From IMG/VR virus record IMGVR_UViG_3300015157_000044: a stretch of DNA of 25,265 nucleotides; one strand, written 5' to 3'. Below the pieces are notes generated by a model, which saw nothing but the letters and a program-made list of their open reading frames with translations, made no database searches and was not told where the DNA came from. This document shows, one piece after another, positions 4,107 through 25,177 of this stretch (within the stretch, counting starts at the first letter, position 1; every line of letters starts with the position of its first letter). Origin of the DNA: a virus (lineage: Duplodnaviria; Heunggongvirae; Uroviricota; Caudoviricetes). The translations under genes were made by a program, and so were the position numbers.

Positions 4107-5431
4107 TGCACTGGCACCTTCAGAGGGATCACCGGCACAAAGCCAGGATGCGTAATGGCATTACGCCGGATAATGTCCGCGTCACGCGCCGCGTTATCAA
4201 ACCAGGTCGCCGCCAGCACCAGCGCGGGTAAAACCTCATCCGGCGTGCGCTGAATGATCCGTGCAGACTGTTCAAGGCGCGTGTTGATATCCGCATTCAG
4301 ATCTGCTTTCACCCGGCGCAGCGCCAGAAACAGCGCATCACTGGTTGTACGGGACAACTCCTTATCAATTGCCGTATTCAGTGTGTCGCGAATGTCGGTC
4401 AGTTCTTCCCACGTTGGCAGGTCAACCGTGTTTTTCACCGCCGGTGCATTGTTCAGTGCCGGATGCGTGACGGAAGGCCAGCCAGTGCTCTGCGCAGGTG
4501 TTGTTGCCTGCCCCACTGCGGAATTCTGCATCACCGCGGAAGTTGTTGGCGCAGGCAATCGGGTGACGGCATACGCCGCTTCGCTGATTGCGGTCGTACG
4601 AAGAGTGCTGGCAACCACATTACGCTGCTGCGTCGCCGTGGCGGTGGTTTTACTGTCCGTTTTCCAGACGCCGCGCGGTTGCAGATCGCTGCCGAGGCTG
4701 ACACCGGAAAGCGTTTTGATCATGGTGACCAGGTCGCTGGCGTTACCATAAAGGCGTTTCCCGGTACGCCACATTTTCTGCACCTGCTCAACGAAATTTT
4801 TGCCTGACGATGGTGGCGGCAGAAGTACCGAGATATCCCCCTGCAACAGCCTGGCAGCATCCGATACGGCAGAATCCACCACTTTCATCGCATCAGAAAT
4901 ATACCCAAGCATTGTGCCGGCATTACCAACGACGTCGTTCTGCACAAAATCCGCCACGCCATCGATACTGAAACCGCTGAAGCTGTCACTGATGCAGTCA
5001 TCCAGTGCAGAACAGGATGACATCAGCGTCTGCGCCGTCGCCGCACCTGATGTGGGGTAAGAGAGTTCTCCCGCTTCGACAAACTTCAGGTCAAAGCGGA
5101 CAATACGCCCTTCACTTTTCGATGTGCTGACCCGAACTTCCCCGTCAACACAGACGTTCATCTCACCGTATGTCGGATGGACAAGCGTGCCGGGACCGGG
5201 TTTATTCAGCGCGTCAATCAGGCGATCGCGCTGGTCAAAGCAGTCATCTCCCACCACATAAGCTGTGATGGACGGGCGGAAAGTGACTTTTCCCAGATCT
5301 TCGGTATAGGGCTTGTCGCGGTTCGGGTATTCATGTGTTTCCACACGGCGACCGGTTCCCGCACTTTCTTCTTCAACCTTAAACGGTACGCCGCGAAATG
5401 ACGCATCCTGAAGCCTGCCTTTCCACGTCAT
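4103..5431 (-). CDS. DNA circulation protein (Mu gpN / gp43-like)
   Basis: 442 aa ORF downstream of the tape measure gene; N-terminus (MTWKGRLQDASFRGVPFKVEEESAGTGRRVETHEYPNRDKPYTEDLGK) is typical of the DNA_circ_N family. Confidence 0.7.
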   Translation of the reverse strand: MTWKGRLQDASFRGVPFKVEEESAGTGRRVETHEYPNRDKPYTEDLGKVTFRPSITAYVVGDDCFDQRDRLIDALNKPGPGTLVHPTYGEMNVCVDGEVRVSTSKSEGRIVRFDLKFVEAGELSYPTSGAATAQTLMSSCSALDDCISDSFSGFSIDGVADFVQNDVVGNAGTMLGYISDAMKVVDSAVSDAARLLQGDISVLLPPPSSGKNFVEQVQKMWRTGKRLYGNASDLVTMIKTLSGVSLGSDLQPRGVWKTDSKTTATATQQRNVVASTLRTTAISEAAYAVTRLPAPTTSAVMQNSAVGQATTPAQSTGWPSVTHPALNNAPAVKNTVDLPTWEELTDIRDTLNTAIDKELSRTTSDALFLALRRVKADLNADINTRLEQSARIIQRTPDEVLPALVLAATWFDNAARDADIIRRNAITHPGFVPVIPLKVPVQ

Positions 5432-5444
5432 ATAAACTCCGGAT

Positions 5445-5503
5445 ACAAAAAACCCGCCAAATCTGCTTTGTCAGTTATTTACATCGCAGAAGATGTGGCG
5501 GGG
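5445..5503 (-). terminator. Terminator-like hairpin on the minus strand after the secreted-protein gene
   Basis: Inverted repeat CCCGCCA (5496-5502) / TGGCGGG (5451-5457) followed on the minus strand by a T6 run (plus A-run 5445-5450). The ~38 nt loop is long for a classical intrinsic terminator. Confidence 0.3.
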
Positions 5504-5521
5504 TTCTAATATTTTCAATTA

Positions 5522-6016
5522 CTATCTGAGTTGAACATCAATGGAATAAACATTACCACTCTTTATAAATTTAGAGTCCGTCCTTTCATCAAAGGATTCA
5601 AATGACTGTACCTTTGAAAACTTTTTCATTTTATTTTCAAAAATACTTTCATTAACACCAGTTAAATACTTGAATGCTCTACCAGCAAGGACCTCATTAC
5701 TTAAAGTTTTTGTGTTTTTATTGTCTTTGAAAAACCAAATAATAACCTTTTGTGGACATGATGGATTATAAACAGATATATAAAACTGCGGCTCATATTT
5801 TTCATCAGCGTCATCACTGAGCATTTCTTCAGAAGATAATTCTCTTCTGAATTCATATTGCCGCTTAGTTATTCCTTCATCCTTTATTATCTCTTGCTTA
5901 ACTGGTGCAATACCTATAGAAGAGATTAATTCTGACTCATTAAAGCTGAACTTACACTCTTCCGCAGCCAAGTTAAAAGATAAAAGTGCAGATATAAAAA
6001 AAACAAAGATACGCAT
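5522..6016 (-). CDS. Secreted hypothetical protein (single-gene AT-rich insert in the tail module)
   Basis: ORF 5522..6034 in the track; the likely start is ATG 6016 (GAAGGG Shine-Dalgarno 6 nt upstream), giving MRIFVFFISALLSFNLAA as a signal peptide. The gene is visibly AT-rich against GC-rich flanks and lies between the tape measure and DNA circulation genes. Mature part has two Cys. Confidence 0.6.
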   Translation of the reverse strand: MRIFVFFISALLSFNLAAEECKFSFNESELISSIGIAPVKQEIIKDEGITKRQYEFRRELSSEEMLSDDADEKYEPQFYISVYNPSCPQKVIIWFFKDNKNTKTLSNEVLAGRAFKYLTGVNESIFENKMKKFSKVQSFESFDERTDSKFIKSGNVYSIDVQLR

Positions 6017-6034
6017 AATCATCCCTTCAATCAT

Positions 6035-6115
6035 TTGTAAGGAATGATTATATTAACTACTTAAAGCTGAAAACCCAAATTATGCCAGACAAAAACACAT
6101 TAATCATTTTGTACA
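6035..6115 (-). promoter_or_regulatory. AT-rich intergenic region with candidate promoter for the secreted-protein gene
   Basis: Exact TATAAT on the minus strand (plus 6047-6052) about 30 nt upstream of ATG 6016; no convincing -35 box, so this is tentative. Confidence 0.25.
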
Positions 6116-7948
6116 CTACCTGAACCGCGTATAGCCAACATCATGGCTGACATCAAAACCGCTGGATCGCGTTTCCATAACCCGCATACCCGGAGGCGAA
6201 TTCACAAAAGATACCTTGATCTCACCATCAACTTTTGGCGCAGAAGCTTTGTTAATCATGAAGGGATTCGGGCCTGTGGCATTGGAGGCGTTGTTTGACT
6301 GAGCCGGATCCACCGCCGGATAAGGTGTGTATCCCCGCGCCGGTATTCCCGTCCCATAAGCATCATAAGCACCCGCGCCCCACTGCGCAGAGTTAATGGC
6401 ATCGACCGTGTCACCGGAACTGTCGGTAAACCACTCAATAATTGGCTTCAGCTTGTCCCACATATCCTGAAACCACTTAACAACCGGTCCCCAGTTATTG
6501 ATTACCATCCCCAGCGGCGACCAGGCAAAAACCTTCTTCAGAAGTTCCCAGCCAGCCTCAAAATAAGGACCAATGGTTTCCCAGAGCTTCTTGAAATAAG
6601 GTCCGACAACATCCCAGTTAGTGATAATTAATCCCGCAGCCAGGGCTATCGCCGTCGCAATCATTCCAATCGGCGTCATCGACATGATCCTGCTGACAAT
6701 ACTGATGGCACCGCCAACGCCCATCAATCCCAGTTTCAGAATCGCAAGACCGGCAGCAAGCCCGACGACGCCGCGAATAACCCGGGGATTTTCATCCGCA
6801 AACTTCGTGAATTTCTCCCCCAACTCCCCCAGCCATTGTGTGATATTTTTAGCGTCACCAGAAAATGCGCCGCCAATAGCCGCAAGGCCGTTAGTTGCGG
6901 TCCCCGTCATTGCCTCCCACAGGTTGGACAGCGTACCAAGCTGGGCCTGAACACGTTTATTCAGGCTGGCCTGTTTATTCATCTTCTGCTGGATCTGATC
7001 GTAGCCATCCTTTCCTTTATCGATTAGTGCATTGACCACCTGAAGGGTTTCGGCATCATCACCAAATATTGCCTTAAGTACACCTGTTCGCTTAACGTCG
7101 GTCAGTTTTCGCAGCTTTGCCAGTTGCCTGAACATGTTATCAAGACCGCCAAAACTACCTTTGCCGTCAGTAAAATCGAGCTGTACCCCGAGTTTCTGGC
7201 GGGCCATGACTTTATTGACGTCCCTGATTTTCTTAACGCTTAATCCGGACTGGATAACTTTTCGCAGGGCATTACCTGCTGACTCCCCGTTCATCCCCAT
7301 CTGATCCATCATGACGCTGATGGGGGCAAGGCTCTGTGCAGCCTGAAGACCGTCCTTGTTCACCATCTTCAGAACAGAACTGGTTTTAGTGAAGAAGGAC
7401 AACATGTTGGTATCGTCAACGCCCAGATAAAACGCCTTCTGGATAGTGTCGAACAGCCCCATCATGTCTTCTGACGCCGTTCCGGTAGCATCCTGCATCT
7501 TTGCAGCAAACTCAGCAGCCGCTTCCGGTGTTTTTTTCAGTTGTACCGCAAGATAAGCTGTCGCTTTACCCACACCACCCAGAATGTTTTCTGCCGGGAT
7601 CCCCTGACGCACCAGCATCTGCATCATGTTCTGGAAATCAGCCGTTGTACCGGGTAGCTGGTTACCCAGGCCAATAGCCAGTTTATTGATGTCCTGAAAG
7701 CTCTTTCCAACCTCGCCGTTCGCATCCATCATGGCGACTTTCAGCCCGGTAGCGGCGTTTTCCTGATCGGCATAAGATTTCAGGGAAAGCGTCAGCCCCG
7801 CTGCCAGTCCTCCACCAAGCGCCAGCCCACCCTGTGACGCTTCTTCCGCCTGGCGTTTAAATCCCCGGATTTTCTTTTGCATTTTCGACAGCGCGGGAGA
7901 AAGCCTGTCGACACCGGTGATCAACGCCTTAAGCTCAAATTCAGCCAT
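6116..7948 (-). CDS. Tail tape measure protein
   Basis: 610 aa ORF immediately downstream of the frameshifted chaperone pair; Ala/Gly-rich with hydrophobic segments in the C-terminal half, typical of tape measure proteins. Confidence 0.8.
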   Translation of the reverse strand: MAEFELKALITGVDRLSPALSKMQKKIRGFKRQAEEASQGGLALGGGLAAGLTLSLKSYADQENAATGLKVAMMDANGEVGKSFQDINKLAIGLGNQLPGTTADFQNMMQMLVRQGIPAENILGGVGKATAYLAVQLKKTPEAAAEFAAKMQDATGTASEDMMGLFDTIQKAFYLGVDDTNMLSFFTKTSSVLKMVNKDGLQAAQSLAPISVMMDQMGMNGESAGNALRKVIQSGLSVKKIRDVNKVMARQKLGVQLDFTDGKGSFGGLDNMFRQLAKLRKLTDVKRTGVLKAIFGDDAETLQVVNALIDKGKDGYDQIQQKMNKQASLNKRVQAQLGTLSNLWEAMTGTATNGLAAIGGAFSGDAKNITQWLGELGEKFTKFADENPRVIRGVVGLAAGLAILKLGLMGVGGAISIVSRIMSMTPIGMIATAIALAAGLIITNWDVVGPYFKKLWETIGPYFEAGWELLKKVFAWSPLGMVINNWGPVVKWFQDMWDKLKPIIEWFTDSSGDTVDAINSAQWGAGAYDAYGTGIPARGYTPYPAVDPAQSNNASNATGPNPFMINKASAPKVDGEIKVSFVNSPPGMRVMETRSSGFDVSHDVGYTRFR

Positions 7949-15678: not shown

Positions 15679-17412
15679 TTAAAGCGAGCGGATCCCATAG
15701 GACTCAATGTGGTCAGACAGCGTGTCTTCTTTCTCGTACAGCATGGCTCTGCCAACCGCCATAATCAGCGCAACTGCACCATCGATTTTGTTTTCCGCCT
15801 GCTCTTTGACGGGCTTCACCACATCATCGTTACCCGGAATGGTTTTGCCGACCACGTTGCCGATACACCAGGTCATGATGGGATTGCCATCATGATGAAA
15901 GCGCCCCGATTCAATTGCCGCTTCCAGCTCTTTCATCGGGTCGGACATGTTGGTGTAGTTCTGAATGATAGTGATGGGGTTCAGGTCTTCATCAGCAAGG
16001 TCATGTGACAACCCGGTCGCCCCGAAGGGGTCGATGGGTGACTCACTGACCGGGCTGATTTTGTTCGCCGCTTTGGCCTCCTCGAGGATGTAGCGATAAT
16101 CCACCTCCGCACCATCGGTAACGGTCAGAACGCCCATTTCCACCCATTTCTGAAAGCGTTCGGCTGTCCGTCGATCTTCATTTTTCTCGACGCTGTACAC
16201 CGTGTCATACGGTACCCAGAAACGCGGGGCCACACTGTAGTAATGCGTTTTACCGTCAATCTCGCGGGTATAAAGTCGCGCCATACTGTTCATATCCAGC
16301 TTACGCGCCAGGTCAAAGGCCAGAATGCACGGCTGCCCCTCGAACTGCTCAAGGGTCAGTGATTTATCCTCGCAGCTCTGCCAGCTCACCAGATTGAAAT
16401 ACGCCGAACGCGCCGACACCCAGATATTGAGGTGTTTTGTTTTAAAGACGTTTGCCAGACGGGCGTTATTTTTCGCACGCTGCTGCTGACTTAACAAAAA
16501 TTCGCGATAAACCGACACGCCAATATTTGGATTGGCTTTTTCCAGCACCTGCGGGTCGGTCCAGTCATCGCCTTCGTCAACGGTATAGATGATCCCGAAC
16601 AGTTCATCGTTGGGTACCGACCCGTTGAGCATCTCGATAACTTCCCGCCGCTTGTCGTAGCACGGCCCCTCAATGTTGTACCCGGCAGTAGTAATGGCCC
16701 ACATCAGTGGCTGACGTCGCGCCCCCATCCCGGTAAGCATCGTGGTGTAAAGCGCATCGGTGGCGTGCTCGTGATATTCATCCACCACCGCACAGTGGGG
16801 TGATGAACCATCACCGGGGTTACCGATCAGCGGTTCAAAACGCGCACCATCCTCCGGACGGTTCATGTTTGAGGCGTTAACCTCAATCCCGAACGCTTCC
16901 GTCAGCATGGGTGTGCGTTTACACATCAGTCTTGCCGGACGAAAGACTTCCCATGCCTGTTTCTCCGTCGTGGCACCGGAATACACTTCCGCGCCGAACT
17001 CGTTATCACAGGCAAAACAATACAGGGCGACACCGGCAGAGATTGCCGATTTGCCGTTCTTACGGGGGATTTCGGTATACACCTCACGGAAGCGGCGCAG
17101 CCGGGAGCCTTTATTGACCCAGCCAAACGCGCAGCAGATCACAAAGAGCTGCCACGGCTCCAGCGTGATGGGCATCCTCTTGAATGCCCACTCACCCTTG
17201 GTGTGCGGCAACAGCTGAATAAATTTGGCGGCCCGTTCAGCCAGGTCCTTGTCGAAGCGGTAACGAAACGACTTACTTTTTTCCGCCATCAGGTCATCAA
17301 GATGGCGCTGGCAGGCCTGAATCACAAACTGGCAGGCCACAATCTTTCCGCGCACGACATCACGGGCATACTGATTGGCTGCATTTACGTTGGGGTAAGA
17401 TTTCCGGCTCAT
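15679..17412 (-). CDS. Terminase large subunit
   Basis: 577 aa ORF with a Walker A-like motif ([10 protein letters not shown]); ATGA overlap with the terminase small subunit stop; followed by portal. Confidence 0.9.
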
Positions 17413-17903
17413 GATTCGATAATTTTCAGAAACGGGTTAGTGGCTTTCTTCTGCCCCGCCAGGCCAATCAGACGCTGGCGGCTGCTGGGGTCGAGTCCGA
17501 GCATTGCCCCCGTGCTGCTCATCTCGGACTCCTGTTCTTTCTTGGCGGTCAGCTCCGGATTTTTGACCATACCGCCCATTGCACCGGTGATGGTGTTGCC
17601 CTGGCTGGCAATATTTTTCACGGCACGTCGCCAGAACTCATAGGCTACGCACCACCGCTCAAGCACCGCGAGGTCAGTCACGCACAGCAGGCCCTGACCG
17701 CAGAGTTCTTTGGTTGTCAGTTGCCACATGATCGTGGCGAGAGGGAGATTTTCTTCTGCGAACCACTCCGGTGGCTCAACGCCTTTGATGGGCGTAAAAA
17801 CAGGTTCATCTTTGTTCAGGGCTCGCTTGCCGGGGTTTCCGGCCAGCGCCTTGCGCGCCGTTGGCTTGGGGCGACGCCCGGAACGCCCCGCCGTTCCAGC
17901 CAT
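17409..17903 (-). CDS. Terminase small subunit (P27-family type)
   Basis: ORF 17409..17912 in the track; likely start is ATG 17903 with AGGAG 9 nt upstream. Located between the HNH gene and the terminase large subunit. Confidence 0.75.
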
Positions 17904-17953
17904 ATGCGGCACTCCTGGTTAAATTTCATTTTTCGCGGGTATAAAAAAACGAT

Positions 17954-18028: not shown

Positions 18029-18379
18029 TCACTTCAACCGTTCACGGGCCGTCTTCGCCTTATGACACGGCCAGCACAGACTCTGCAGATTACAGTCGGC
18101 ATCAGTGCCGCCATGCGCTTTAGGGATGATGTGGTCAACAGTTTTCGCCTCACGCACCACACCAGCACGCAGACATAGCTGACACAGGCCTTTGTCACGC
18201 TTCAGGACACGCACGCGGATAACATCCCACTTCGAACCATAACCGCGCTGATGACGAGATTGTCCTGGCTTGTATTGCTTCCAGCCTTCGCTTTTATGGC
18301 TTTCGCAGTAGCCTGACGGGTCCGTGGTTGTAGAGCGGCAGCCGCGAATACGGCAGGCCTTTGGGATTCGCGGGGGCAT
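18029..18379 (-). CDS. HNH endonuclease (terminase-associated)
   Basis: 116 aa ORF with Cys/His clusters (CRIRGC ... CQLCLRAG ... VDHIIPKAHGG ... CWPCHKAK) immediately upstream of the terminase small subunit. Confidence 0.85.
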   Translation of the reverse strand: MPPRIPKACRIRGCRSTTTDPSGYCESHKSEGWKQYKPGQSRHQRGYGSKWDVIRVRVLKRDKGLCQLCLRAGVVREAKTVDHIIPKAHGGTDADCNLQSLCWPCHKAKTARERLK

Positions 18380-18430
18380 TAATCTTTCCCCTTAATTTAT
18401 TACTATGAGGCAGACCACAGAGATCGTAAT

Positions 18431-18454
18431 AAAAAAACCGCCCGAAGGCGGTTT
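18431..18454 (-). terminator. Rho-independent terminator (minus strand)
   Basis: Stem CCGCC/GGCGG (18438-18442 / 18447-18451) with a 4-nt loop, followed on the minus strand by a T7 run (plus A-run 18431-18437). Lies 17 nt after the stop of the small gene at 18472. Confidence 0.65.
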
Positions 18455-18471
18455 AAAGTACGGTTCGCATT

Positions 18472-18669
18472 TTATCCTTTTAAAGCGAGCTGAATTGCAT
18501 CGGCCAGCTTTCCAATGCGCTCAGTTGCCTGATCTAAATCGCTATGCATTACTCCATTACCTGAGCTTGCTGATGCCTTAGCTATCTCAAGTGCAGCCTG
18601 AACTGCAAGTAAACGCTGTGTTTTTTCATCTGTACTAGCCATACCATTTTTAAAATAGTTCTCTAACAT
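18472..18669 (-). CDS. Small hypothetical protein downstream of the spanin genes
   Basis: ORF 18472..18708 in the track; likely start is ATG 18669 (AAGGGA Shine-Dalgarno), giving 65 aa (MLENYFKNGMASTDEKTQRLLAVQAALEIAKASASSG...). Followed directly by the terminator. Confidence 0.45.
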   Translation of the reverse strand: MLENYFKNGMASTDEKTQRLLAVQAALEIAKASASSGNGVMHSDLDQATERIGKLADAIQLALKG

Positions 18670-18760
18670 AATAATTCCCTTTCTTACCCTGCCGATATAG
18701 CAGGTCACGAAAAGTTAATGGGGATTATATTGCAGTTTTCAAGGTTATTTTCACAGCCCC

Positions 18761-19312
18761 TCAGGGAGAGGGGCTTCTGTGATACTGTTGCCGTTCCCGT
18801 TCTATCTGGCGTATTCCTGCGAGCTGATTATTCGCCCTGTCAATAGCTGTCAGTAGAGGTTCAATCCACAGCACGGCCTGGCAGTATGTCAACGCGCCGG
18901 TGGTAAAGGAGTCATTATCGGCTGAGTAAGGGTGCCCGGGATCGGAATGTATGGCGCCGGAACGTAAACTGTTCGCATATTCGAGCACCCCGTTAGCGAT
19001 ATCAGCAGGAACAGGAAAATCGCAATTTTTTTCACGATGGAGAATCTCCCTGTATTTAATAACCGTTTTTTCACCACTGTCACTAAGTAATGAGTTCAGA
19101 CTTCCAGTATATTCTGCTACCTGATTAAAGCGGCTAAAGTTGAATGCCTGTTCAGCTATCACTTTCCCTTGATATTCTGCTTCACCTACGGCTTTATCCG
19201 CACGTAACTTTTCTATCTGATATTTACTGTAGTAATGGTTTGCTGACCAGACGAGTCCACCAAAGATAGAAATGAAGAATGCAGCGATAACCAGCTTATA
19301 ACTCAACTTCAT
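18761..19312 (-). CDS. Rz: i-spanin (Rz-like)
   Basis: 183 aa ORF with an N-terminal transmembrane segment (LVIAAFFISIFGGLVWSANHY, cf. lambda Rz ...WAVNHY) directly after the endolysin gene with a 17-nt overlap. Confidence 0.7.
   Translation of the reverse strand: MKLSYKLVIAAFFISIFGGLVWSANHYYSKYQIEKLRADKAVGEAEYQGKVIAEQAFNFSRFNQVAEYTGSLNSLLSDSGEKTVIKYREILHREKNCDFPVPADIANGVLEYANSLRSGAIHSDPGHPYSADNDSFTTGALTYCQAVLWIEPLLTAIDRANNQLAGIRQIERERQQYHRSPSP
18889..19083 (-). CDS. Rz1: o-spanin (Rz1-like lipoprotein) embedded in Rz in an alternative frame
   Basis: ORF entirely inside Rz in another frame; lipobox LTGC after a hydrophobic stretch (KKIAIFLFLLISLTGC) and a proline-rich mature region (VPAPYIPIPGTLTQPIMTPLPPAR). 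The true start is uncertain. Confidence 0.6.
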   Translation of the reverse strand: MTVVKKRLLNTGRFSIVKKIAIFLFLLISLTGCSNMRTVYVPAPYIPIPGTLTQPIMTPLPPAR

Positions 19313-19772
19313 TTACCACCCCGCCAGCCTCTTTAAATCGGGCAATCAGGTCACCGATTTTATGTTCATACTGACCGTAACCTGCACCGGGTAATGACGC
19401 CCAGATATTGCTGCAACGAGCGATAGCCTGACGAATATCGCCGCAATCAATCATCGGTAAAGCACCACGCTCTTTAATCTGCTGCAGCGCTACAGCGTCC
19501 TGGCTTTCTGGAGAAAAATCTTTCAGGCCAAGCTGTTTACGGTAAGTATCCCACCAGCGTGAAAGAAGCTGGTAACGTCCAGCGGCTGTTGATTTGAGTT
19601 TGAGGTTTAGCATGACAAGTTTGCGAGGGTGATCGGAGTAATCAGCGAACAGTTCGCCACCAACAATAACGTCATAACCGTGGTTACGTGTCGGTTGTCG
19701 CCCGTTATCCGTTCCTTCTGACCATGCCACCATATCAAGGAAAGCTTTACGCTGGGAATTTAGAGCCTGCAT
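19296..19772 (-). CDS. R: Endolysin, lambda R-like lytic transglycosylase
   Basis: 158 aa; from memory the sequence (QRKAFLDMVAWSEGTDNGRQPTRNHGYDVIVGGELFADYSDHPRKLV...) is nearly collinear with phage lambda R. Sits between the holin and Rz. Confidence 0.9.
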   Translation of the reverse strand: MQALNSQRKAFLDMVAWSEGTDNGRQPTRNHGYDVIVGGELFADYSDHPRKLVMLNLKLKSTAAGRYQLLSRWWDTYRKQLGLKDFSPESQDAVALQQIKERGALPMIDCGDIRQAIARCSNIWASLPGAGYGQYEHKIGDLIARFKEAGGVVNEVEL

Positions 19773-19775
19773 AAA

Positions 19776-20111
19776 TTACTCCTTCGAGCTACCAAATTTA
19801 TTACCGATTACTCGCATTGCAGCCCCACGAATAGCATCGACACCGATCAGCCCCACGCCACCACCAATGGCAACAGAAAGCGATTTAGGCCATCCGACAT
19901 ACTCAAGCGCGGATGCAAAAGTCAGCGTCAGAGCACCACAGAGCAAAATCTCGAGCGTTTTTCGCTTCCAGCCACCACCACCACCAAAATAAGCAATACG
20001 CAAACCAGCCATAACGATCGACATAATCACTGCGCCAAGAGGCGTATCTCCACGCCACCAGCTCTGGAAAATCTCCAGCCAATCCGGCCATGTGTTTGGA
20101 TTATGGGGCAT
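19776..20111 (-). CDS. Putative holin
   Basis: 111 aa ORF with hydrophobic segments, ending 4 nt upstream of the endolysin gene; GAGGTGA Shine-Dalgarno upstream. Confidence 0.65.
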   Translation of the reverse strand: MPHNPNTWPDWLEIFQSWWRGDTPLGAVIMSIVMAGLRIAYFGGGGGWKRKTLEILLCGALTLTFASALEYVGWPKSLSVAIGGGVGLIGVDAIRGAAMRVIGNKFGSSKE

Positions 20112-20192
20112 GAATATCGTCTCTCACCTCGTAAGTTATGCAGGCGACATATAAAAAGTTAAATAAAATAGTTGAATCAGATTGAGACATGG

Positions 20193-20222
20193 AAAAGGCT
20201 CGCCTGTGCGAGCCTTTTATTT
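20193..20222. terminator. Hairpin terminator between the two-gene insert and the holin
   Basis: Stem GGCTCGC / GCGAGCC (20197-20203 / 20208-20214) with loop CTGT, flanked by AAAA on one side and TTTTATTT on the other. The U-tract is stronger for plus-strand transcripts (TTTTATTT) than minus-strand transcripts (TTTTCC). Confidence 0.5.
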
Positions 20223-20291
20223 AGGTAGAGTGTTATAATAAAATCAAATTTACATTATCTTCTTCCAAAAAGAAGATAATCATCATATCCT

Positions 20292-21581
20292 TCAGAGCTC
20301 CTGATAAGCAGGTTGCAATTTTTCACACCACTGCCTTAAAGTAGAAGCCCTTCTCTTTATTGTTTTGGAGCTGAGAGATATACATCTATCTTGCAAAAAT
20401 CGTTCAGCTGTAAGTGGATCGAGCTCAGAAAGATTTTTAGCCTGACTCCAGGTAATCCACGCCCACCCGCAATGACTTGTTTCAAAACCGCGTGCAGCGA
20501 TTCTTAGTCTCTTATCATAGTCAGATTCAACCAATTGCTGACCAAGAGCTGAAACAGAACCATTACTATTTAGTAACCCAAGTATTTTGGCCGCATGAAT
20601 ATAATACAATATATGTCGATTATCCAGACCAGTACTAATCAGGTTCAGATGCTTCTCTTGCCATTTTAATTCAACTATCTTAAACACTTGTTCAATTAGG
20701 TTAGCCTGCGGTACCTGATAACTACTAACAACTTGAGTAGCCATTTTAATCAATGTGCCAGAATAGAACTCAGCATCAGTTTTTCTGACTCTAAGAATAA
20801 TATCATCAGTCACATTACTTTTTAGTTCAAAACATGAACTTGTCTCTATCACACTTTCAAATAAAGCAGATAACATCTGAACATCGATATTATTCTGTTT
20901 AACAAAACCAATAATATCTTTTCTTGATAGAATCAGCTCATTTAGTTTTTTCAGCAATGGTTCAATTTGCTGCATTTTATCTGCCTTGAATGAAAGAACA
21001 AATGAACCAGGACGTCCAGATACTGGACTCATTACATCTTTTTCATCAAATGCAGCTAATATTGATGAATAGAAATCATTAAAACACTCAAAAAGCTTCG
21101 AGACGCCTTTTAAAACCAAGGGTTCCACAGAAGTTGCTGTTTTCTCCACATGAATCTCATGCGTAGAGAATTCTACCTCCTTTCCAATTTTACCATTAGG
21201 TAATACAGGAAGAACACTACTAATATATAAGTTAGGTTCTGGAATTTTTATCTTCTCATTTAACTCAGAAACATTTATTTTTATTTCATCAACATGATTA
21301 TCTTCATAGTAAATATTAAACTGATAGCAAAGCTTTTGTTCTTGATACACTAAAACACTTCTAATATCAATTCTTTTACGCTCGAAGTGCTCCAACCTAT
21401 CTTTTGAAATCGGTATGATAATCCATTTATCATAATCTTCTTCGTCGCCAATCCAATAGACAACAAACATGCTATTTATTTCATTAGACACAGAGAAAAG
21501 TTTTGGCTCTTCGAAGAACTCATAAATTTTTTGCATATATAATGTGCCGAACACACTATCTTCCAAAAAAATATTGCTCAT
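20292..21581 (-). CDS. Hypothetical protein, 429 aa (distal gene of the AT-rich two-gene insert; function unknown)
   Basis: Long AT-rich ORF with a GAGAGGTGG Shine-Dalgarno; its ATG overlaps the stop of the upstream gene (ATGA). No Walker A, HNH, or other motif recognised by eye. Confidence 0.75.
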   Translation of the reverse strand: MSNIFLEDSVFGTLYMQKIYEFFEEPKLFSVSNEINSMFVVYWIGDEEDYDKWIIIPISKDRLEHFERKRIDIRSVLVYQEQKLCYQFNIYYEDNHVDEIKINVSELNEKIKIPEPNLYISSVLPVLPNGKIGKEVEFSTHEIHVEKTATSVEPLVLKGVSKLFECFNDFYSSILAAFDEKDVMSPVSGRPGSFVLSFKADKMQQIEPLLKKLNELILSRKDIIGFVKQNNIDVQMLSALFESVIETSSCFELKSNVTDDIILRVRKTDAEFYSGTLIKMATQVVSSYQVPQANLIEQVFKIVELKWQEKHLNLISTGLDNRHILYYIHAAKILGLLNSNGSVSALGQQLVESDYDKRLRIAARGFETSHCGWAWITWSQAKNLSELDPLTAERFLQDRCISLSSKTIKRRASTLRQWCEKLQPAYQEL

Positions 21582-22018
21582 CTAACCACCTCTCTTATAC
21601 AGGTGAATTTTTCATGAACTCGAGCATCTTTACAAAGCCAAATGGTAAAATGAGTCGAATCAGGAGCTCCTGTTTTTAGCATTCTTCCATCCTGTGGATT
21701 CAACTCGCCTTTAGCAATAAACCTTTCACCTATTCCTTCAGGAAATTTATTAAATACATTTACCAGTGATGTTTCGTCCATGAACATAGAAACACCATAG
21801 CAGCATTTCAATTTTAACCCTTGGAACTTTTTCATTCTTTTTGGGTTTTCTTCTTTCATGTTTAAAAAACAAGCTTTCCCAGGTGGATTATTTCTGGCTA
21901 AGCGATAAAAAACCCCTTCAGCATCCAAGGACTCTTTTGGAGGAACATCTGCAGGAAAATAATCGGGAAAAATCTGTTGGGCAGAGTCTTCAAGAACCTG
22001 CTGTGCATTTTTAGTCAT
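21578..22018 (-). CDS. Hypothetical protein, ~146 aa (proximal gene of the AT-rich two-gene insert; function unknown)
   Basis: ORF 21578..22045 in the track begins at a TTG; the first ATG is 22018 (MTKNAQQVLEDSAQQIFPDYF...). Translationally coupled to the 429 aa gene. No recognisable motif. Confidence 0.65.
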   Translation of the reverse strand: MTKNAQQVLEDSAQQIFPDYFPADVPPKESLDAEGVFYRLARNNPPGKACFLNMKEENPKRMKKFQGLKLKCCYGVSMFMDETSLVNVFNKFPEGIGERFIAKGELNPQDGRMLKTGAPDSTHFTIWLCKDARVHEKFTCIREVVR

Positions 22019-22045
22019 ACAATACGCTACCCAAGTAATTAACAA

Positions 22046-22616
22046 AAATCTGCCAATTTATTGGATATACACGTCCCAAATCCCTTGGCATCGTATTGAA
22101 TATAACAACAAGCACATTAATCACATATGCAATAAAGGCATAAAAAACACAACATATATAGCAAAAAGAAATCAACAACAATATACGGGATGATGAGGTT
22201 TTTTTTATCTATATATAGTGGCTGGGCAAAAGAATTGTTATAAAGTTGGCGTCCCTTGCTCCCATGTAATCATATGAAACACAGGATATAATTCCTGAAG
22301 GTAATCACATACTTCCCTAGATACATAGATGAGAGACTAAAATAAAACCTACCGCCAAGAACTATGCTTTTTTCAACCAATCGTACTCTCTGCCCTGTCT
22401 AAAAGGCGGCCATTCAAAGCAAGTACTTATTCTTTTATGTTTATCAAGAAGCTACTAAGACTATTCAGAACTGATATTTGGATAACAAAATACCTACTTG
22501 ATGGCGGGTTCTTGAAGATTCTCAACGGCAGACATACAAAGCCCATCGTTGAGAAAATCTTATCCATATTTTTTGAAAAATGCAAGCATCATGTCGCCAT
22601 CTTCGGCGAAAATCAC
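22046..22616 (-). promoter_or_regulatory. AT-rich non-coding region between the Q-like gene and the insert; expected site of the late promoter and Q-utilisation elements
   Basis: 570 bp without a credible minus-strand ORF. Candidate sigma70-like promoter on the minus strand, TTGCAT (22580-22585), 17-nt spacer, TAAGAT (22557-22562), followed by inverted repeat TCTCAACG / CGTTGAGA (22547-22554 / 22520-22527). Assignment is positional and weak. Confidence 0.3.
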
Positions 22617-23369
22617 TTATCTCGTCACCTTTCTCAATTGTGCTTCAGCGTAAGATTCCTCCTGCCAGCACTTTGTAACCAGTTTATCAATGACATTTGC
22701 ATATCCTTTGTACCACTGATAATCAGTCAGGTCCGGTACCAGCTTCTGGACATGATGCCGCGCCAGTGTGGTTGGTAAACGACTAAACCGTTTTCCATTG
22801 CAACGCCCACAAATCTTATAAACAGGTGTGCCATGAAGCCGGGTCCTTTTTTCATCCAGGACAATACCTTTACCCTTACACCCTCTGCACGCTGTGCTGA
22901 CTTCTCCCTTACCATGACAATGCTGACATAGTTCCTTCACCCACTCTTCCTTGATAACAGATTCCCCGCTTCTGGAGTGTTTCACCACTTCGCGCAATAC
23001 ATTATGAAATCCAGTACCAGCACAATGCTCACAGCGAGCCTTACTTGCCGCAGACCTGGAATAATCAGCAAAGGCAAAATTCACAAGGTAAGGGATGATC
23101 TGTAACCGGGTTTCTTCACTCAATTTGTTCAATGTCGGGTTATCCAGTGCCATCGCGTAATTGAGCAGACCTTCAATCGCAAATTGAGGATCCTGAACAC
23201 CAACTTTTGCCAGGAATAAGGCAAACCCAAGCGGTGCTTTCGACTGCACCATCCCCTGCGCAGCCATCACATCCGTAATCGTTAAACCACCTGAGCCTGT
23301 CGCCGGTGCGTCATCGCTCAATTTTGGAGATTTTGGGGAGTAATATTTTGGTAAGGCTTCAAGGTTCAT
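22617..23369 (-). CDS. Putative late antiterminator Q-like protein with four CxxCxGxG zinc-finger repeats
   Basis: ORF 22617..23411 in the track; likely start is ATG 23369 (GGAGAA Shine-Dalgarno), giving 250 aa. Contains CEHCAGTG, CQHCHGKG, CRGCKGKG and CGRCNGKR. It is the last early-region gene before the late/lysis region. Confidence 0.5.
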   Translation of the reverse strand: MNLEALPKYYSPKSPKLSDDAPATGSGGLTITDVMAAQGMVQSKAPLGFALFLAKVGVQDPQFAIEGLLNYAMALDNPTLNKLSEETRLQIIPYLVNFAFADYSRSAASKARCEHCAGTGFHNVLREVVKHSRSGESVIKEEWVKELCQHCHGKGEVSTACRGCKGKGIVLDEKRTRLHGTPVYKICGRCNGKRFSRLPTTLARHHVQKLVPDLTDYQWYKGYANVIDKLVTKCWQEESYAEAQLRKVTR

Positions 23370-23382
23370 GCTCGTTCTCCAC

Positions 23383-24378
23383 TTACGCCAGTACGCCAAT
23401 TGCCAGCGCACGATCGATAAAACGAAATATCAGCTCCAGTTGGGAGCCATACATCTCTTCAAATGCCACGGTATCCGCATGCAGTTCGTCGTGATGCTTT
23501 CTGCACAAAGGCAACACAAAGAGGTCATGCGCTTTTGTACCCATTCCCCCCTGACCGTGGCCTATCAGGTGGTGGGGATCATCAGCAGGCTTTCCACAAC
23601 ATGCACACGGCTGTGTCTTAACCCAGCGCGTGTACTTTTCATTAACCCAGCGGCGACGTTTTGGGCGTAACATAAAAGACTCCGGCGACTCCGGATCCAC
23701 TTTCAGCGCCAGCACCTTTTTCGCCTTATCCTGGATGATGCTGGTGGCAGGAACCGAAGGCACAAGGTCACTTTCCCGGGTGACAGACGGCACAACAGGC
23801 TTCGGTAATCTCAGTGCCTTACGGGCTGCACTTTCCGGTAAGGCATCCGCCAGGTCATTACGAATCAGCCACCAGCACAGTTCCGGAATTGTCACAACGT
23901 GACTATCATCAAAACCGAGATCACGGCGCACAACAGATAACACCCAGCGGGCACAGTTATCCGTTGCCATTGATTCCAGCCGTTCCGTGAACTGATCGCG
24001 CAGCTGGTTATCGCAGTGCCAGCACAGACGAATTGCTCCCGGAGCGTGCCACATTGTGGTCATGTTCTCGCTGTGCCAGTCGGAATGAAGCCACTGGCAG
24101 CCTTTTTCACGAAGTAACCAACTTTCAAGACATTCCACGCCACCAGCACGACGGATCACTGCCTCATTGCGGAACACGGCCCGAACGGCAGGATCATCCG
24201 CCAGCGGTTGTGATGCCGCCGGAACGGCACCACTGGCGAAAGATGAATAACGTTCCGGCTCAGGCTCCAGCAGGACACGCCCCTGCATAAACAGGGGCAT
24301 CAGCTCTGAACCTGGTCTGAACAATACGATCCCCATACGCGGGGCAATTTCAGGGGTCAGTAGTGCTCTCACGGTCAC
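23383..24378 (-). CDS. DUF968-like prophage protein (YdfU-like) with C-terminal HNH-like Cys/His motif
   Basis: 331 aa ORF; C-terminus has CACCGKPADDPHHLIGHGQGG ... CRKHHDELH. Start codon appears to be GTG at 24378, adjacent to the stop of the KilA-N gene. Confidence 0.5.
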   Translation of the reverse strand: MTVRALLTPEIAPRMGIVLFRPGSELMPLFMQGRVLLEPEPERYSSFASGAVPAASQPLADDPAVRAVFRNEAVIRRAGGVECLESWLLREKGCQWLHSDWHSENMTTMWHAPGAIRLCWHCDNQLRDQFTERLESMATDNCARWVLSVVRRDLGFDDSHVVTIPELCWWLIRNDLADALPESAARKALRLPKPVVPSVTRESDLVPSVPATSIIQDKAKKVLALKVDPESPESFMLRPKRRRWVNEKYTRWVKTQPCACCGKPADDPHHLIGHGQGGMGTKAHDLFVLPLCRKHHDELHADTVAFEEMYGSQLELIFRFIDRALAIGVLA

Positions 24379-24379
24379 C

Positions 24380-25177
24380 TCAATGAACGGTATCGAGCAG
24401 CTTTAACAGCTCAGGGAATCGGGATTCGAAGAAATGCGGCTGCGTCTCGCGCGGATTTGCGGGACTGGTGATGTTCTTGCCGAACATGCAGCCTTTCGCT
24501 GTCAGCGACCAGAATTTTTTGATGTTGTTAATCGCGGTACGGCTGTATCGTTCGCGCTGCTCGACGATCCCCAGCTTCACCATCTGGTGATATGCCTGAT
24601 TAGCTGTCAGGCGGATACCATACTGCTTCAGCAGTGCACTCAGTGACAGCGTGGGGCGGCTTGAGCCATCAGGCGCGTCAGCAGGAGCATCAATGGCATA
24701 GCGCGGTGCCAGATTCGGTAAGCCAACAGCCTCCTGGAGTTTCTGACAGGCACCAAGCACTGAAGAGTTAGACAGGTTTAATTCCCGGCGCATAAAGTCC
24801 AGCAGAATCACACCAGCCTGCATCTTGTCAGCAGCCTGTCCGGATAATTTTTCCGGTACGCTGGTTACCATGTCGAAAGTACGGATCACCTTCAGATGGA
24901 ATGACGGGCTGATCCACATTGCATAGGCATACACCAGTTCTTTGCAGACATACGTCCCCTGGTTATTTCCGCCACGAATAACGTTAACTGACTCTATATT
25001 GACCGAGTTGCAAATCTGCAACTCGCTTATTAAACGTTCAGTTTGCTCATTGCGGAGCCAGAATGCAGGCTTATGCTTATCCAGAGAACCAGCAGCCCTG
25101 TGCAGATCGTTCAGGCTGTAACGCCCATAAGCATCACGACGAACTTCAATACCATCAATGACCATCAGATTATTCAT
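24380..25177 (-). CDS. KilA-N domain protein (antirepressor-like)
   Basis: 265 aa ORF with AGGAG Shine-Dalgarno upstream; N-terminal ~100 aa (MNNLMVIDGIEVRRDAYGRYSLNDLHRAAGSLDKHKPAFWLRNEQTERLISEL) is typical of KilA-N/APSES-type domains in prophage early regions. Confidence 0.65.
   Translation of the reverse strand: MNNLMVIDGIEVRRDAYGRYSLNDLHRAAGSLDKHKPAFWLRNEQTERLISELQICNSVNIESVNVIRGGNNQGTYVCKELVYAYAMWISPSFHLKVIRTFDMVTSVPEKLSGQAADKMQAGVILLDFMRRELNLSNSSVLGACQKLQEAVGLPNLAPRYAIDAPADAPDGSSRPTLSLSALLKQYGIRLTANQAYHQMVKLGIVEQRERYSRTAINNIKKFWSLTAKGCMFGKNITSPANPRETQPHFFESRFPELLKLLDTVH

What the first reader, a model, noticed from the sequence alone, without database searches (positions are those of the whole stretch)
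20112..22616. Sharp base-composition discontinuity delimits a ~2.5 kb foreign insert
By eye the G+C content drops from clearly above 50% in the structural and lysis genes to roughly one-third across 20112..22616, then returns. The boundaries coincide with the holin start on one side and the Q-like gene stop on the other, which points to horizontal acquisition of a discrete module rather than native phage sequence. No transposase or terminal inverted repeats were seen, so insertion was probably by illegitimate or homologous recombination at the cargo hotspot.
Basis: seen in the sequence. Interest (0 to 1): 0.5.

Follow-up and report, generated by a model that had tools for sequence, protein, structure and literature searches.

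The report
Foreign defence cassette in prophage Q–holin slot
The AT-rich 2.4 kb stretch is a real, horizontally acquired two-gene cassette in the well-known cargo slot between the late-gene activator Q and the lysis genes of an E. coli prophage. It is most likely a distant relative of the PD-T4-10 toxin–antitoxin anti-phage system, so it is an ordinary kind of feature carrying a poorly studied cargo.

Summary
Window 20112-22616 has 35.2% G+C against 53.8% for the rest, and it is the lowest-GC stretch of that length in the window. GC3 of its two genes is 0.28-0.29, against 0.43-0.67 in the flanking genes.

Comparison with phage SfV and with E. coli prophages that have 92-98% identical flanks puts the true junctions at 20131/20132, 20 nt upstream of the holin ATG, and at 22502/22503, 114 nt past the Q stop and inside the tR' terminator hairpin.

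Relatives fill the same slot with:
- orf47 plus a DNA methyltransferase (1278 of 5426 complete E. coli genomes);
- one small ORF;
- csp genes;
- tRNAs plus stx2.

Only 3 of 5426 genomes carry this cargo.

The cargo is a self-contained cassette: a conserved extended -10 promoter, gene A (146 aa), gene B (429 aa, DUF6575) overlapping A by ATGA, and a strong terminator. A and B match PD-T4-10_A and the N-terminus of PD-T4-10_B. PD-T4-10 is a published toxin-antitoxin-like abortive-infection system.

Structure prediction adds two points. A has an ADP-ribosyltransferase-like fold. B ends in a FokI/BrxA-like double winged helix.

No transposase or terminal repeats were found, and spread by homologous recombination is supported. 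Verdict: a real feature and a new member of a known kind. The defence function is inferred, not tested.

The parts
22617..23369 (-). Late-gene antiterminator Q (250 aa from the RefSeq start; the mechanical ORF runs to a GTG at 23411). This is the upstream conserved flank of the slot.
   Evidence: Pfam Antiterm PF03589, E 1.1e-53. It is 95-98% identical to Q of SfV, Ayreon, a Stx2k phage and many E. coli prophages.
22503..22616 (-). Conserved Q-downstream leader. It is inferred to hold the late promoter PR' (candidate -35 TTGCAT at 22585-22580, 17-nt spacer, -10 TAAGAT at 22562-22557) and the 5' arm of terminator tR' (AACCCGCC, 22510-22503).
   Evidence: Homology to SfV and other Q-sharing phages runs to 22503 and then stops. 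The promoter hexamers were read from the sequence and are inference. GenBank annotates terminators at the matching position in SfV and Ayreon.
22480..22510 (-). Weakened remnant of tR' at the Q-side junction. The 5' arm is kept, while the loop and 3' arm are replaced or mutated.
   Evidence: Alignment. Predicted hairpin energy is -5.1 kcal/mol here against -14.0 for SfV tR'.
20132..22502 (-). The foreign cassette proper (2371 nt), which replaces the 1589-nt orf47 plus DNA methyltransferase segment of SfV-type relatives.
   Evidence: BLAST breakpoints. It is 99.5-99.9% identical in the three carrier genomes and absent from the other 5423, where only 10 have short ~69% matches in other DUF6575 genes.
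22081..22107 (-). The cassette's own promoter-like element. It is an extended -10 (TG at 22107-22106, TATATT at 22104-22099) followed by the conserved GATGCCAAGGGA (22092-22081), 66 nt upstream of the A start codon.
   Evidence: The motif TTTG[TC]TATATT-N6-[GA]ATGCCA[AG] is conserved upstream of A in all enterobacterial modules examined, including ones whose B is only about 47% identical. It occurs once per locus and once in the window, with 0 expected by chance.
21578..22018 (-). Gene A, 146 aa. It is a PD-T4-10_A-like putative antitoxin with a predicted ADP-ribosyltransferase-like fold.
20292..21581 (-). Gene B, 429 aa. It is a DUF6575 protein and the putative toxin or effector, with a C-terminal double winged-helix domain. 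Its ATG overlaps the A stop codon (ATGA).
20193..20218 (-). Intrinsic terminator of the cassette (AAAAGGCTCGC-ACAG-GCGAGCCTTTT). It is the only strong terminator between Q and the holin.
   Evidence: A perfect 11-nt inverted repeat (I22). Predicted energy is -12.8 kcal/mol for the stem and -17.6 with the A/U extension. It was the best hit in a hairpin plus U-tract scan of the whole interval.
19776..20131 (-). Lambda-S-type holin with its ribosome-binding site. It is the downstream conserved flank, and its allele travels with the cargo.
   Evidence: Pfam Phage_holin_3_1, E 2.2e-27. It is 98.6-100% identical in cargo carriers but 92-93% identical in methylase carriers.

Best explanation
The low-GC tract is a horizontally acquired, self-contained 'moron' cassette (20132-22502, minus strand). 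It lies in the cargo slot between the late antiterminator Q with its late promoter and the holin of an SfV-like lambdoid prophage of E. coli. There it replaces the orf47 plus DNA methyltransferase cargo that most relatives carry.

The cassette consists of its own extended -10 promoter, two translationally coupled genes (A, 146 aa; B, 429 aa, DUF6575) and its own strong terminator. It is therefore built to be expressed in the lysogen without turning on the lysis genes. On induction, Q-modified RNA polymerase would read through it into S, R and Rz. The Q-proximal terminator tR' is weakened at the junction, so read-in from PR' may add to expression.

The gene pair is a divergent relative of PD-T4-10, a toxin-antitoxin-like abortive-infection system. 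The most likely working is that B is a growth-arresting effector held inactive by A. Infection by another phage would upset this balance, so the infected cell stops growing or dies before the invader multiplies, which protects the lysogen population.

Shown here:
- the composition and the junctions;
- the variable slot;
- the family matches;
- strict A-B pairing;
- the conserved promoter motif and the terminator;
- the predicted folds.

Inferred:
- expression in the lysogen;
- the toxin and antitoxin roles;
- the defence phenotype;
- the trigger.
For: - **Composition and junctions:**
- **Variable slot with identical flanks:**. Frequencies are 3 against 1278 of 5426 genomes.
- **Family matches:** PADLOC PD-T4-10_A at 5.6e-10 (near full length) and PD-T4-10_B at 1.1e-7. 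Pfam DUF6575 at 7.8e-37, above the gathering score.
- **Published function of PD-T4-10:** Vassallo et al. 2022 (PMC9519451) describe two overlapping ORFs. B carries DUF6575 and is toxic, A neutralises it, and the pair gives abortive-infection protection against T-even phages.
- **Pairing:** A lies immediately upstream of B in 17 of 17 related loci.
- **Context of relatives:** relatives sit in recognised prophage defence hotspots. These are after Q (Rahnella), between the lysis and packaging genes, between P2 gpA and portal (Pantoea) and next to a P4-type integrase.
- **Own control elements:** the promoter motif is conserved across modules and the terminator is strong.
- **Mode of spread:** the haplotype block indicates spread by homologous recombination.
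Against: - No experiment exists on this variant.
- B matches only positions 26-120 of the 353-position PD-T4-10_B model, and the whole ~430-aa clade behaves the same way. The effector part may therefore differ from the tested system.
- A has an enzyme-like ART fold, which is not what a simple binding antitoxin looks like.
- In distant relatives a DNA methyltransferase gene directly precedes A-B, and B ends in a FokI/BrxA-like DNA-binding domain. Both hint at a restriction-like logic rather than a plain toxin-antitoxin pair.
- The promoter and the terminator effects are sequence predictions only.
- AT-rich DNA in E. coli can be silenced by H-NS (general knowledge), so expression in the lysogen is not assured.
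Confidence: 0.68

Rival explanations
1. The pair is the effector half of a restriction-modification-like DNA-targeting system. B would bind DNA through its FokI/BrxA-like winged helices and damage unmodified DNA through the DUF6575 part. A would regulate it. In the ancestral form a linked methyltransferase protects the host.
Against: In the window the cassette replaced the methylase rather than joining it. No nuclease motif or nuclease fold was detected in the DUF6575 part. In enterobacterial prophages the methylase is simply another tenant of the same slot. PD-T4-10 worked as a two-gene system without a methylase.
Confidence: 0.13
2. It is a plain addiction (post-segregational killing) toxin-antitoxin module that stabilises the prophage and has no anti-phage role.
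For: It has overlapping two-gene toxin-antitoxin-like architecture. B of the related PD-T4-10 is toxic and A neutralises it. K-12 Qin carries relBE and hokD near the same Q.
Against: The related system was recovered in a functional selection for phage resistance. Relatives recur in recognised defence hotspots of P2-like and lambdoid prophages. Stabilisation and defence are not mutually exclusive.
Confidence: 0.1
3. It is a lysogenic-conversion or virulence cargo acting on a eukaryotic host or competitor, by analogy with stx in the same slot. A would be an ADP-ribosylating toxin.
For: The same Q allele drives stx2 in a Stx2k phage. The fold of A resembles bacterial ADP-ribosylating toxins.
Against: A is 146 aa, which leaves little room for a delivery domain beyond the ART-like core, and secretion signals were not tested. 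It is strictly paired with a cytoplasmic-looking DNA-binding protein. No conserved catalytic glutamate was found. The family matches a defence-system model.
Confidence: 0.04
4. The tract is native phage sequence whose AT-richness reflects regulatory or structural constraints, not foreign origin.
For: Promoter and terminator regions after Q are AT-rich in all relatives.
Against: Coding GC3 is 0.28-0.29 against 0.43-0.67 in the flanks. The cargo is absent from 5423 of 5426 genomes, although 3894 have matches to the flanking Q-lysis query and 1278 carry the alternative methylase cargo. No deposited phage genome encodes B. The module has 33-40% GC in every host examined, whatever the flank composition.
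Confidence: 0.02

Closest known systems
PD-T4-10 (Vassallo et al. 2022, Nat Microbiol; PMC9519451), a two-gene toxin-antitoxin-like abortive-infection system from E. coli ECOR65
   Same: Two ORFs with overlapping stop and start codons, small A first and large B second. A matches the PD-T4-10_A model over nearly its whole length. B carries the DUF6575 domain that the paper names as the novel defence domain. Both occur in mobile-element or prophage contexts.
   Different: The sequence relation is distant, with E values of 1e-7 to 1e-10. B aligns only to positions 26-120 of the 353-position model and is longer (429 aa). Its C-terminal half is a double winged helix (weak DUF7226 match) that was not described for PD-T4-10. 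Function is untested here.
Lambdoid late-operon morons in the Q-S slot (stx1/stx2 in Stx phages; SfV orf47-orf48 methylase; cspB/cspF in Qin)
   Same: Same position, immediately downstream of Q and PR'/tR' and upstream of S. In several cases it is the same Q allele. Composition is atypical, each cargo has its own terminator in front of S, and cargo is swapped between conserved flanks.
   Different: The cargo is a candidate defence system rather than a toxin, methylase or cold-shock gene. Here the junction lies inside tR' and weakens it, whereas SfV, Ayreon and the other relatives compared keep an intact tR' upstream of their cargo.
Prophage defence hotspots (P2 gpA-portal 'old/tin' locus, P4 hotspot; Rousset et al. 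2022, cited in PMC9519451 and PMC11364771)
   Same: Relatives of this A-B module sit in the P2 gpA-portal hotspot (Pantoea), next to a P4-type integrase (Pectobacterium), and upstream of the packaging module of lambdoid prophages.
   Different: The window's copy is in the Q-S slot of an SfV-like prophage, not in a P2 or P4 element.
ART-fold toxins of toxin-antitoxin systems (RES/ParT, MbcT, DarT)
   Different: In those systems the ART protein is the toxin. In PD-T4-10 the A protein is the neutralising partner. No sequence-profile match to any Pfam ART family was found and no conserved catalytic Glu is present.

Membership tests
Lambdoid Q-S slot moron | Located between the late antiterminator gene with its promoter and the holin gene, on the late-operon strand | tested here: met
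   Order on the minus strand is Q (22617-23369), cassette, holin (19776-20111).
Lambdoid Q-S slot moron | Conserved flanks with different or no cargo in related phages | tested here: met
   Five or more alternative slot contents lie behind the same Q allele. Frequencies are 3 against 1278 of 5426 genomes.
Lambdoid Q-S slot moron | Own promoter and terminator allowing expression from the repressed prophage | tested here: inconclusive
   A conserved extended -10 motif and a strong hairpin plus U-tract are present. Activity was not measured.
Lambdoid Q-S slot moron | Base composition different from the surrounding phage genes | tested here: met
   G+C 0.352 against 0.538. GC3 0.28-0.29 against 0.43-0.67.
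PD-T4-10 defence system | Two adjacent, overlapping ORFs, with small A upstream of large B | tested here: met
   ATGA overlap at 21578-21581. A-B are paired in 17 of 17 related loci.
PD-T4-10 defence system | A protein matches the PD-T4-10_A profile | tested here: met
   E 5.6e-10, HMM positions 24-147 of 148. 45 of 65 wider family members also match.
PD-T4-10 defence system | B protein carries DUF6575 | tested here: met
   Pfam PF20215, 127 bits against a cut-off of 26.6, positions 2-217 of 218.
PD-T4-10 defence system | B protein matches the PD-T4-10_B profile over most of its length | tested here: not met
   Only positions 26-120 of 353 match, at E 1.1e-7. The same holds for 7 relatives. 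It is therefore filed as a divergent relative, not a canonical member.
PD-T4-10 defence system | B is toxic, A neutralises it, and the pair protects against T-even phages by abortive infection | not testable with these tools
   Known only for the ECOR65 system.
ADP-ribosyltransferase superfamily (protein A) | Split beta-sheet ART core fold | tested here: inconclusive
ADP-ribosyltransferase superfamily (protein A) | Catalytic motif (R-S-E, H-Y-E or the RES triad) | tested here: inconclusive
   R39 and S77 are conserved on strands 1 and 2, and H123 and W127 are invariant, but no conserved Glu is present. Their structural equivalence to ART catalytic positions was not verified residue by residue.
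ADP-ribosyltransferase superfamily (protein A) | Sequence-profile match to a curated ART family | tested here: not met
   No Pfam or NCBIfam hit. No PDB sequence-profile hit.
Transposon or insertion-sequence cargo | Transposase gene, terminal inverted repeats, target-site duplication | tested here: not met
   There are no such ORFs. No repeats lie at the 20132 and 22502 junctions.

The most novel reading that the evidence does not exclude
The PD-T4-10-type 'antitoxin' A may be an active, non-canonical ADP-ribosyltransferase-fold enzyme with a conserved R-S-H set of residues. It would keep the DNA-binding DUF6575 effector B, or B's target, switched off by covalent modification. That would make it an enzymatic (type VII-like) antitoxin, the reverse of DarT, ParT and MbcT, where the ART protein is the toxin. 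Infection would be sensed through loss of NAD+ or loss of A activity. In this prophage the cassette has also captured the constitutive late promoter by weakening tR', with its own terminator serving as the new tR'.
Probability: 0.12. Interest if true: 0.7.

Novelty: new member of a known kind. Interest (0 to 1): 0.35.

Why it matters
The finding is a textbook-style example of how lambdoid prophages exchange cargo at the slot that also carries Shiga toxin genes. It has base-pair resolution of the junctions and a clear haplotype signature of spread by homologous recombination.

The cargo matters somewhat more. It belongs to a clade of roughly 430-aa DUF6575 proteins, found mainly in Enterobacterales in the searches run here. 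In RefSeq the pair is annotated only as 'DUF6575 domain-containing protein' plus 'hypothetical protein'. Against the PADLOC models the match is weak and partial, so it may escape coverage-based defence-system calling.

The mechanism of PD-T4-10 is unknown. The predicted ART-like fold of A, the FokI/BrxA-like DNA-binding end of B and the conserved promoter motif all give concrete, testable handles on it.

Tried and rejected
- **RNA genes:** tRNA/tmRNA and Rfam scans of the whole window found nothing, so no RNA gene or tRNA-linked integration is involved.
- **Terminal repeats:** the repeat search found none at the junctions.
- **Consensus scans:** the generic promoter/terminator scan missed both the extended -10 promoter and the cassette terminator, because its rules require two hexamers and at least 5 T. 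They were found by alignment and by a custom hairpin scan.
- **Family libraries:** NCBIfam had no hit for A or B. PHROGs gave only one marginal hit.
- **Phage and plasmid records:** tblastn of B against 50,697 phage records gave no match. Plasmids gave five matches. The one examined, the best match in Rahnella, lies in a phage-gene context.
- **Solved structures:** profile searches of PDB sequences with the A and B alignments found nothing significant. Foldseek of the B model against PDB also found nothing significant, so the fold of the DUF6575 N-terminal and middle parts remains unassigned.
- **The original PD-T4-10 proteins:** I could not retrieve their sequences (RCO36089.1 and RCO36088.1) for a direct pairwise comparison.
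- **Donor organism:** the nearest non-E. coli B homologues are only about 75% identical. The module is AT-rich in every host, so no donor can be named.
- **Small ORFs:** the + strand ORFs in the tract, and the small minus-strand ORFs at 22011-22181 and 22427-22585, were treated as spurious. They overlap the real genes or the conserved leader, and RefSeq does not annotate them at the matching positions in the carrier genomes.
Full report
**1. Setting**

The window is the late region of a lambdoid prophage, with all genes on the minus strand. From high to low coordinates the genes are:

| Feature | Coordinates |
|---|---|
| KilA-N protein | 24380-25177 |
| DUF968 protein | 23383-24378 |
| Q antiterminator (Pfam Antiterm) | 22617-23369 |
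| The tract in question | 20112-22616 |
| Lambda-S-type holin | 19776-20111 |
| Lysozyme | 19296-19772 |
| Rz with an embedded Rz1 | 18761-19312 |
| HNH endonuclease | 18029-18379 |
| P27-type small terminase | 17409-17912 |
| Large terminase | 15679-17412 |

Downstream of these come head genes and a Mu-like contractile tail. The closest deposited phage is Shigella phage SfV. Near-identical prophages occur in E. coli chromosomes.

**2. The observation**

G+C of 20112-22616 is 0.352, against 0.538 for the rest of the window. My arithmetic on those figures puts the deviation at about 18-19 binomial SD for 2505 bases. No other 2505-nt window is as low. The 500-nt windows outside average 0.540 with SD 0.051, and the five inside are 0.32-0.38.

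The effect is strongest at third codon positions. GC3 is 0.28 (B) and 0.29 (A), against 0.43-0.67 in the neighbours.

The holin-side edge is abrupt, going from 0.52 to 0.30 within 100 nt, with a likelihood change-point at 20148. The Q-side edge is softer, with a change-point at 22581.

The lysis genes and Q are 0.46-0.51, not clearly above 50%.

**3. True boundaries**

BLAST against SfV gives homology over 19187-20131 (91%) and 22503-23600 (97.5%), with nothing in between.

- The downstream junction, 20131/20132, lies just before the holin ribosome-binding site GAGGTGAGAGA.
- The upstream junction, 22502/22503, lies 114 nt after the Q stop.

The retained 114 nt are shared with very many Q-bearing prophages and phages. 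Their homology to the window also ends at 22502-22534.

In SfV, strain 165 and AR_0085 this leader ends in a hairpin, AACCCGCC-loop-GGCGGGTTTTTTT. GenBank annotates a terminator at this position in SfV and Ayreon, which is the expected tR'. In the window only the 5' arm, AACCCGCC (22510-22503), is intact. The predicted hairpin energy drops from -14.0 to -5.1 kcal/mol.

The foreign segment is therefore 20132-22502 (2371 nt). It replaces 1589 nt of SfV that carry orf47 and a DNA methyltransferase.

**4. Is the slot variable?**

Yes. Behind the same Q allele the slot holds:

| Slot content | Where |
|---|---|
| orf47 + N6/N4 DNA methylase | SfV, E. coli 165 |
| One 67-aa ORF only | GPEC1337 |
| Extra hypothetical genes + methylase, different holin | AR_0085, Ayreon |
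| cspF, cspB, ynfU | K-12 Qin |
| tRNAs + stx2A/B | phiSTEC1575-Stx2k |

The methylase cargo is present in 1278 of 5426 complete E. coli genomes. This cargo is present in 3. It is more frequent in draft assemblies, and all ten places shown have the same Q-A-B-holin order. No deposited phage genome encodes B.

The refutation condition, that all relatives carry the same two genes, is clearly not met.

**5. How it got there and spread**

There is no transposase or integrase gene, and no terminal inverted or direct repeats at the junctions.

Among the window and the three complete-genome carriers, the holin, cargo and leader are 98.2-100% identical. The adjacent lysin is 91-94%, Q is 95-99% and the KilA-N gene is 88-91%. 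One carrier also has different genes downstream of the lysis cassette (Rha regulator and S1 peptidase instead of HNH and terminase). The holin allele of carriers differs from that of methylase carriers (92-93%).

This is the signature of a block that moves between related prophages by homologous recombination in conserved flanking genes. The original event that created the junction inside tR' cannot be reconstructed. No donor is identifiable, because the nearest non-E. coli B homologues are about 75% identical.

**6. What the cargo is**

The cassette holds two genes:

- **A:** 21578-22018, 146 aa from the RefSeq start.
- **B:** 20292-21581, 429 aa. Its ATG overlaps the A stop codon (ATGA).

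B matches Pfam DUF6575 (E 7.8e-37, full length of the model) and, weakly, DUF7226 at the C-terminus. In PADLOC, A matches PD-T4-10_A (E 5.6e-10, positions 24-147 of 148). B matches PD-T4-10_B (E 1.1e-7), but only positions 26-120 of 353.

Vassallo et al. 2022 showed the following for PD-T4-10 (PMC9519451):

- It has two overlapping ORFs.
- B is toxic and A neutralises it.
- A could not be deleted.
- Loss of B abolishes protection against T4.
- Defence is by abortive infection.
- DUF6575 is named as a domain new to defence.

The whole ~430-aa clade of B, which is mainly Enterobacterales with a few Vibrionales and Alteromonadales, matches the PD-T4-10_B model only at the N-terminus. This is therefore a divergent sister group, not a canonical member.

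A lies immediately upstream of B in 17 of 17 related loci.

The module has 33-40% G+C in every host, including hosts whose flanks are 48-55%. AT-richness is a property of the module, not of a recent donor.

**7. Context of relatives**

The module recurs in prophage cargo sites:

- directly after a different Q gene in a Rahnella prophage, where it sits beside the orf47-like gene and the methylase;
- between the spanin and small-terminase genes in E. coli 155, ES4, Raoultella and Kluyvera;
- between P2 gpA and portal in Pantoea, the classic P2 defence hotspot;
- next to a P4-type integrase in Pectobacterium.

In Psychromonas, Rheinheimera, Vibrio, Photobacterium and a Bacteriovoracaceae MAG, a DNA methylase gene directly precedes A-B.

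**8. The cassette's own control elements**

Upstream regions of A from different contexts are unalignable except for one motif, TTTG[TC]TATATT-N6-[GA]ATGCCA[AG]. It occurs once per locus, 60-77 nt before the start codon, even where B is only about 47% identical. It reads as an extended -10 promoter (TGnTATATT) followed by a conserved element at the start site. In the window it lies at 22081-22107.

After B there is a perfect 11-nt inverted repeat with a U-tract (20193-20218). Its predicted energy is -12.8 to -17.6 kcal/mol. It is the only strong terminator between Q and S. Rahnella and the Enterobacteriaceae MAG have analogous hairpins after B.

This layout of promoter, genes and terminator is the defining layout of a moron.

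My inferences are these. The pair is transcribed in the lysogen from its own promoter, and possibly by read-in from PR' through the weakened tR'. Transcription stops before the holin. During lytic growth, Q-modified polymerase reads through to S, R and Rz.

**9. Structure-based hints on mechanism**

These results fit a DNA- or RNA-associated effector (B) controlled by a small ART-like partner (A). They do not establish chemistry.

**10. Verdict**

The feature is an ordinary kind of thing: a moron in the lambdoid Q-S slot, the same slot and Q allele that carry stx2 elsewhere. The cargo is a divergent and poorly annotated member of the PD-T4-10 family of toxin-antitoxin-like abortive-infection systems.

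The defence function, the toxin and antitoxin roles and expression in the lysogen are all inferred. I give about 0.9 to 'foreign cassette acquired by recombination' and about 0.65-0.7 to 'PD-T4-10-like defence system working as described'.

The most novel reading still open is that A is an enzymatic ART-type antitoxin.

Noticed in passing
window 5250-6250 (ORF 5522-6034, minus strand): A second low-GC patch (0.31-0.39) holds a 170-aa ORF between the tape-measure gene (6116-7948) and the DNA-circulation gene (4103-5431). It has no Pfam or PADLOC match. Only 84 of the 1093 E. coli genomes that match the query (the patch plus its flanks) cover at least 80% of it, so this is probably another moron slot inside the tail module.
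   Followed up: partly
window 18380-18760 (ORF 18472-18708, minus strand): A third variable slot lies between the spanin genes and the HNH/terminase genes (GC about 0.44). The window has a 78-aa ORF with no family match. Prophages carrying the same A-B cargo have other genes there instead: a GrlR-family regulator, Bor, a Rha regulator plus an S1 peptidase, or various hypothetical proteins.
   Followed up: partly
window 21983-22001 and 22504-22522: A 19-nt inverted repeat (17 of 19 complementary) pairs the conserved leader at the Q-side junction (the 5' arm of the tR' remnant) with codons 6-12 of gene A, 502 nt downstream. The window's leader is more complementary to A than the SfV leader is. 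It could be a long-range RNA pairing in read-in transcripts, or it could be chance (I3).
   Followed up: no
L016 4892-5452; L019 4837-5547; L020 281-994; L021 4793-5536; L022 472-1185: In the non-enterobacterial relatives (Psychromonas, Rheinheimera, Vibrio, Photobacterium, a Bacteriovoracaceae MAG) a DNA methyltransferase gene (Dam or N6_N4_Mtase family) sits directly upstream of A-B. This suggests an ancestral three-gene, restriction-modification-like arrangement.
   Followed up: partly
window 21578-22018 (protein A): The PD-T4-10_A-like 'antitoxin' has a predicted ADP-ribosyltransferase-like fold. It belongs to a large family (688 clusters at 50% identity) with no match in the Pfam or NCBIfam copies searched here. 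R39, S77, H123 and W127 are conserved. The PD-T4-10 paper reported no predicted function for either protein.
   Followed up: partly
window 18889-19083 within 18761-19312, minus strand: An embedded 64-aa ORF in another frame of the 183-aa Rz-like gene contains a lipobox-like LTGC motif, so it is the expected Rz1/LysC o-spanin. The window's Rz ORF (183 aa) is longer than the 130-aa DUF2570 protein of most relatives.
   Followed up: no
L039 (phage Ayreon) and L002 (SfV), Q-to-S interval: Each cargo unit in the Q-S slot of relatives is bracketed by annotated intrinsic terminators (three in Ayreon, two in SfV). The slot therefore looks like a string of terminator-delimited cassettes, and terminator hairpins may be recurrent crossover points.
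   Followed up: no
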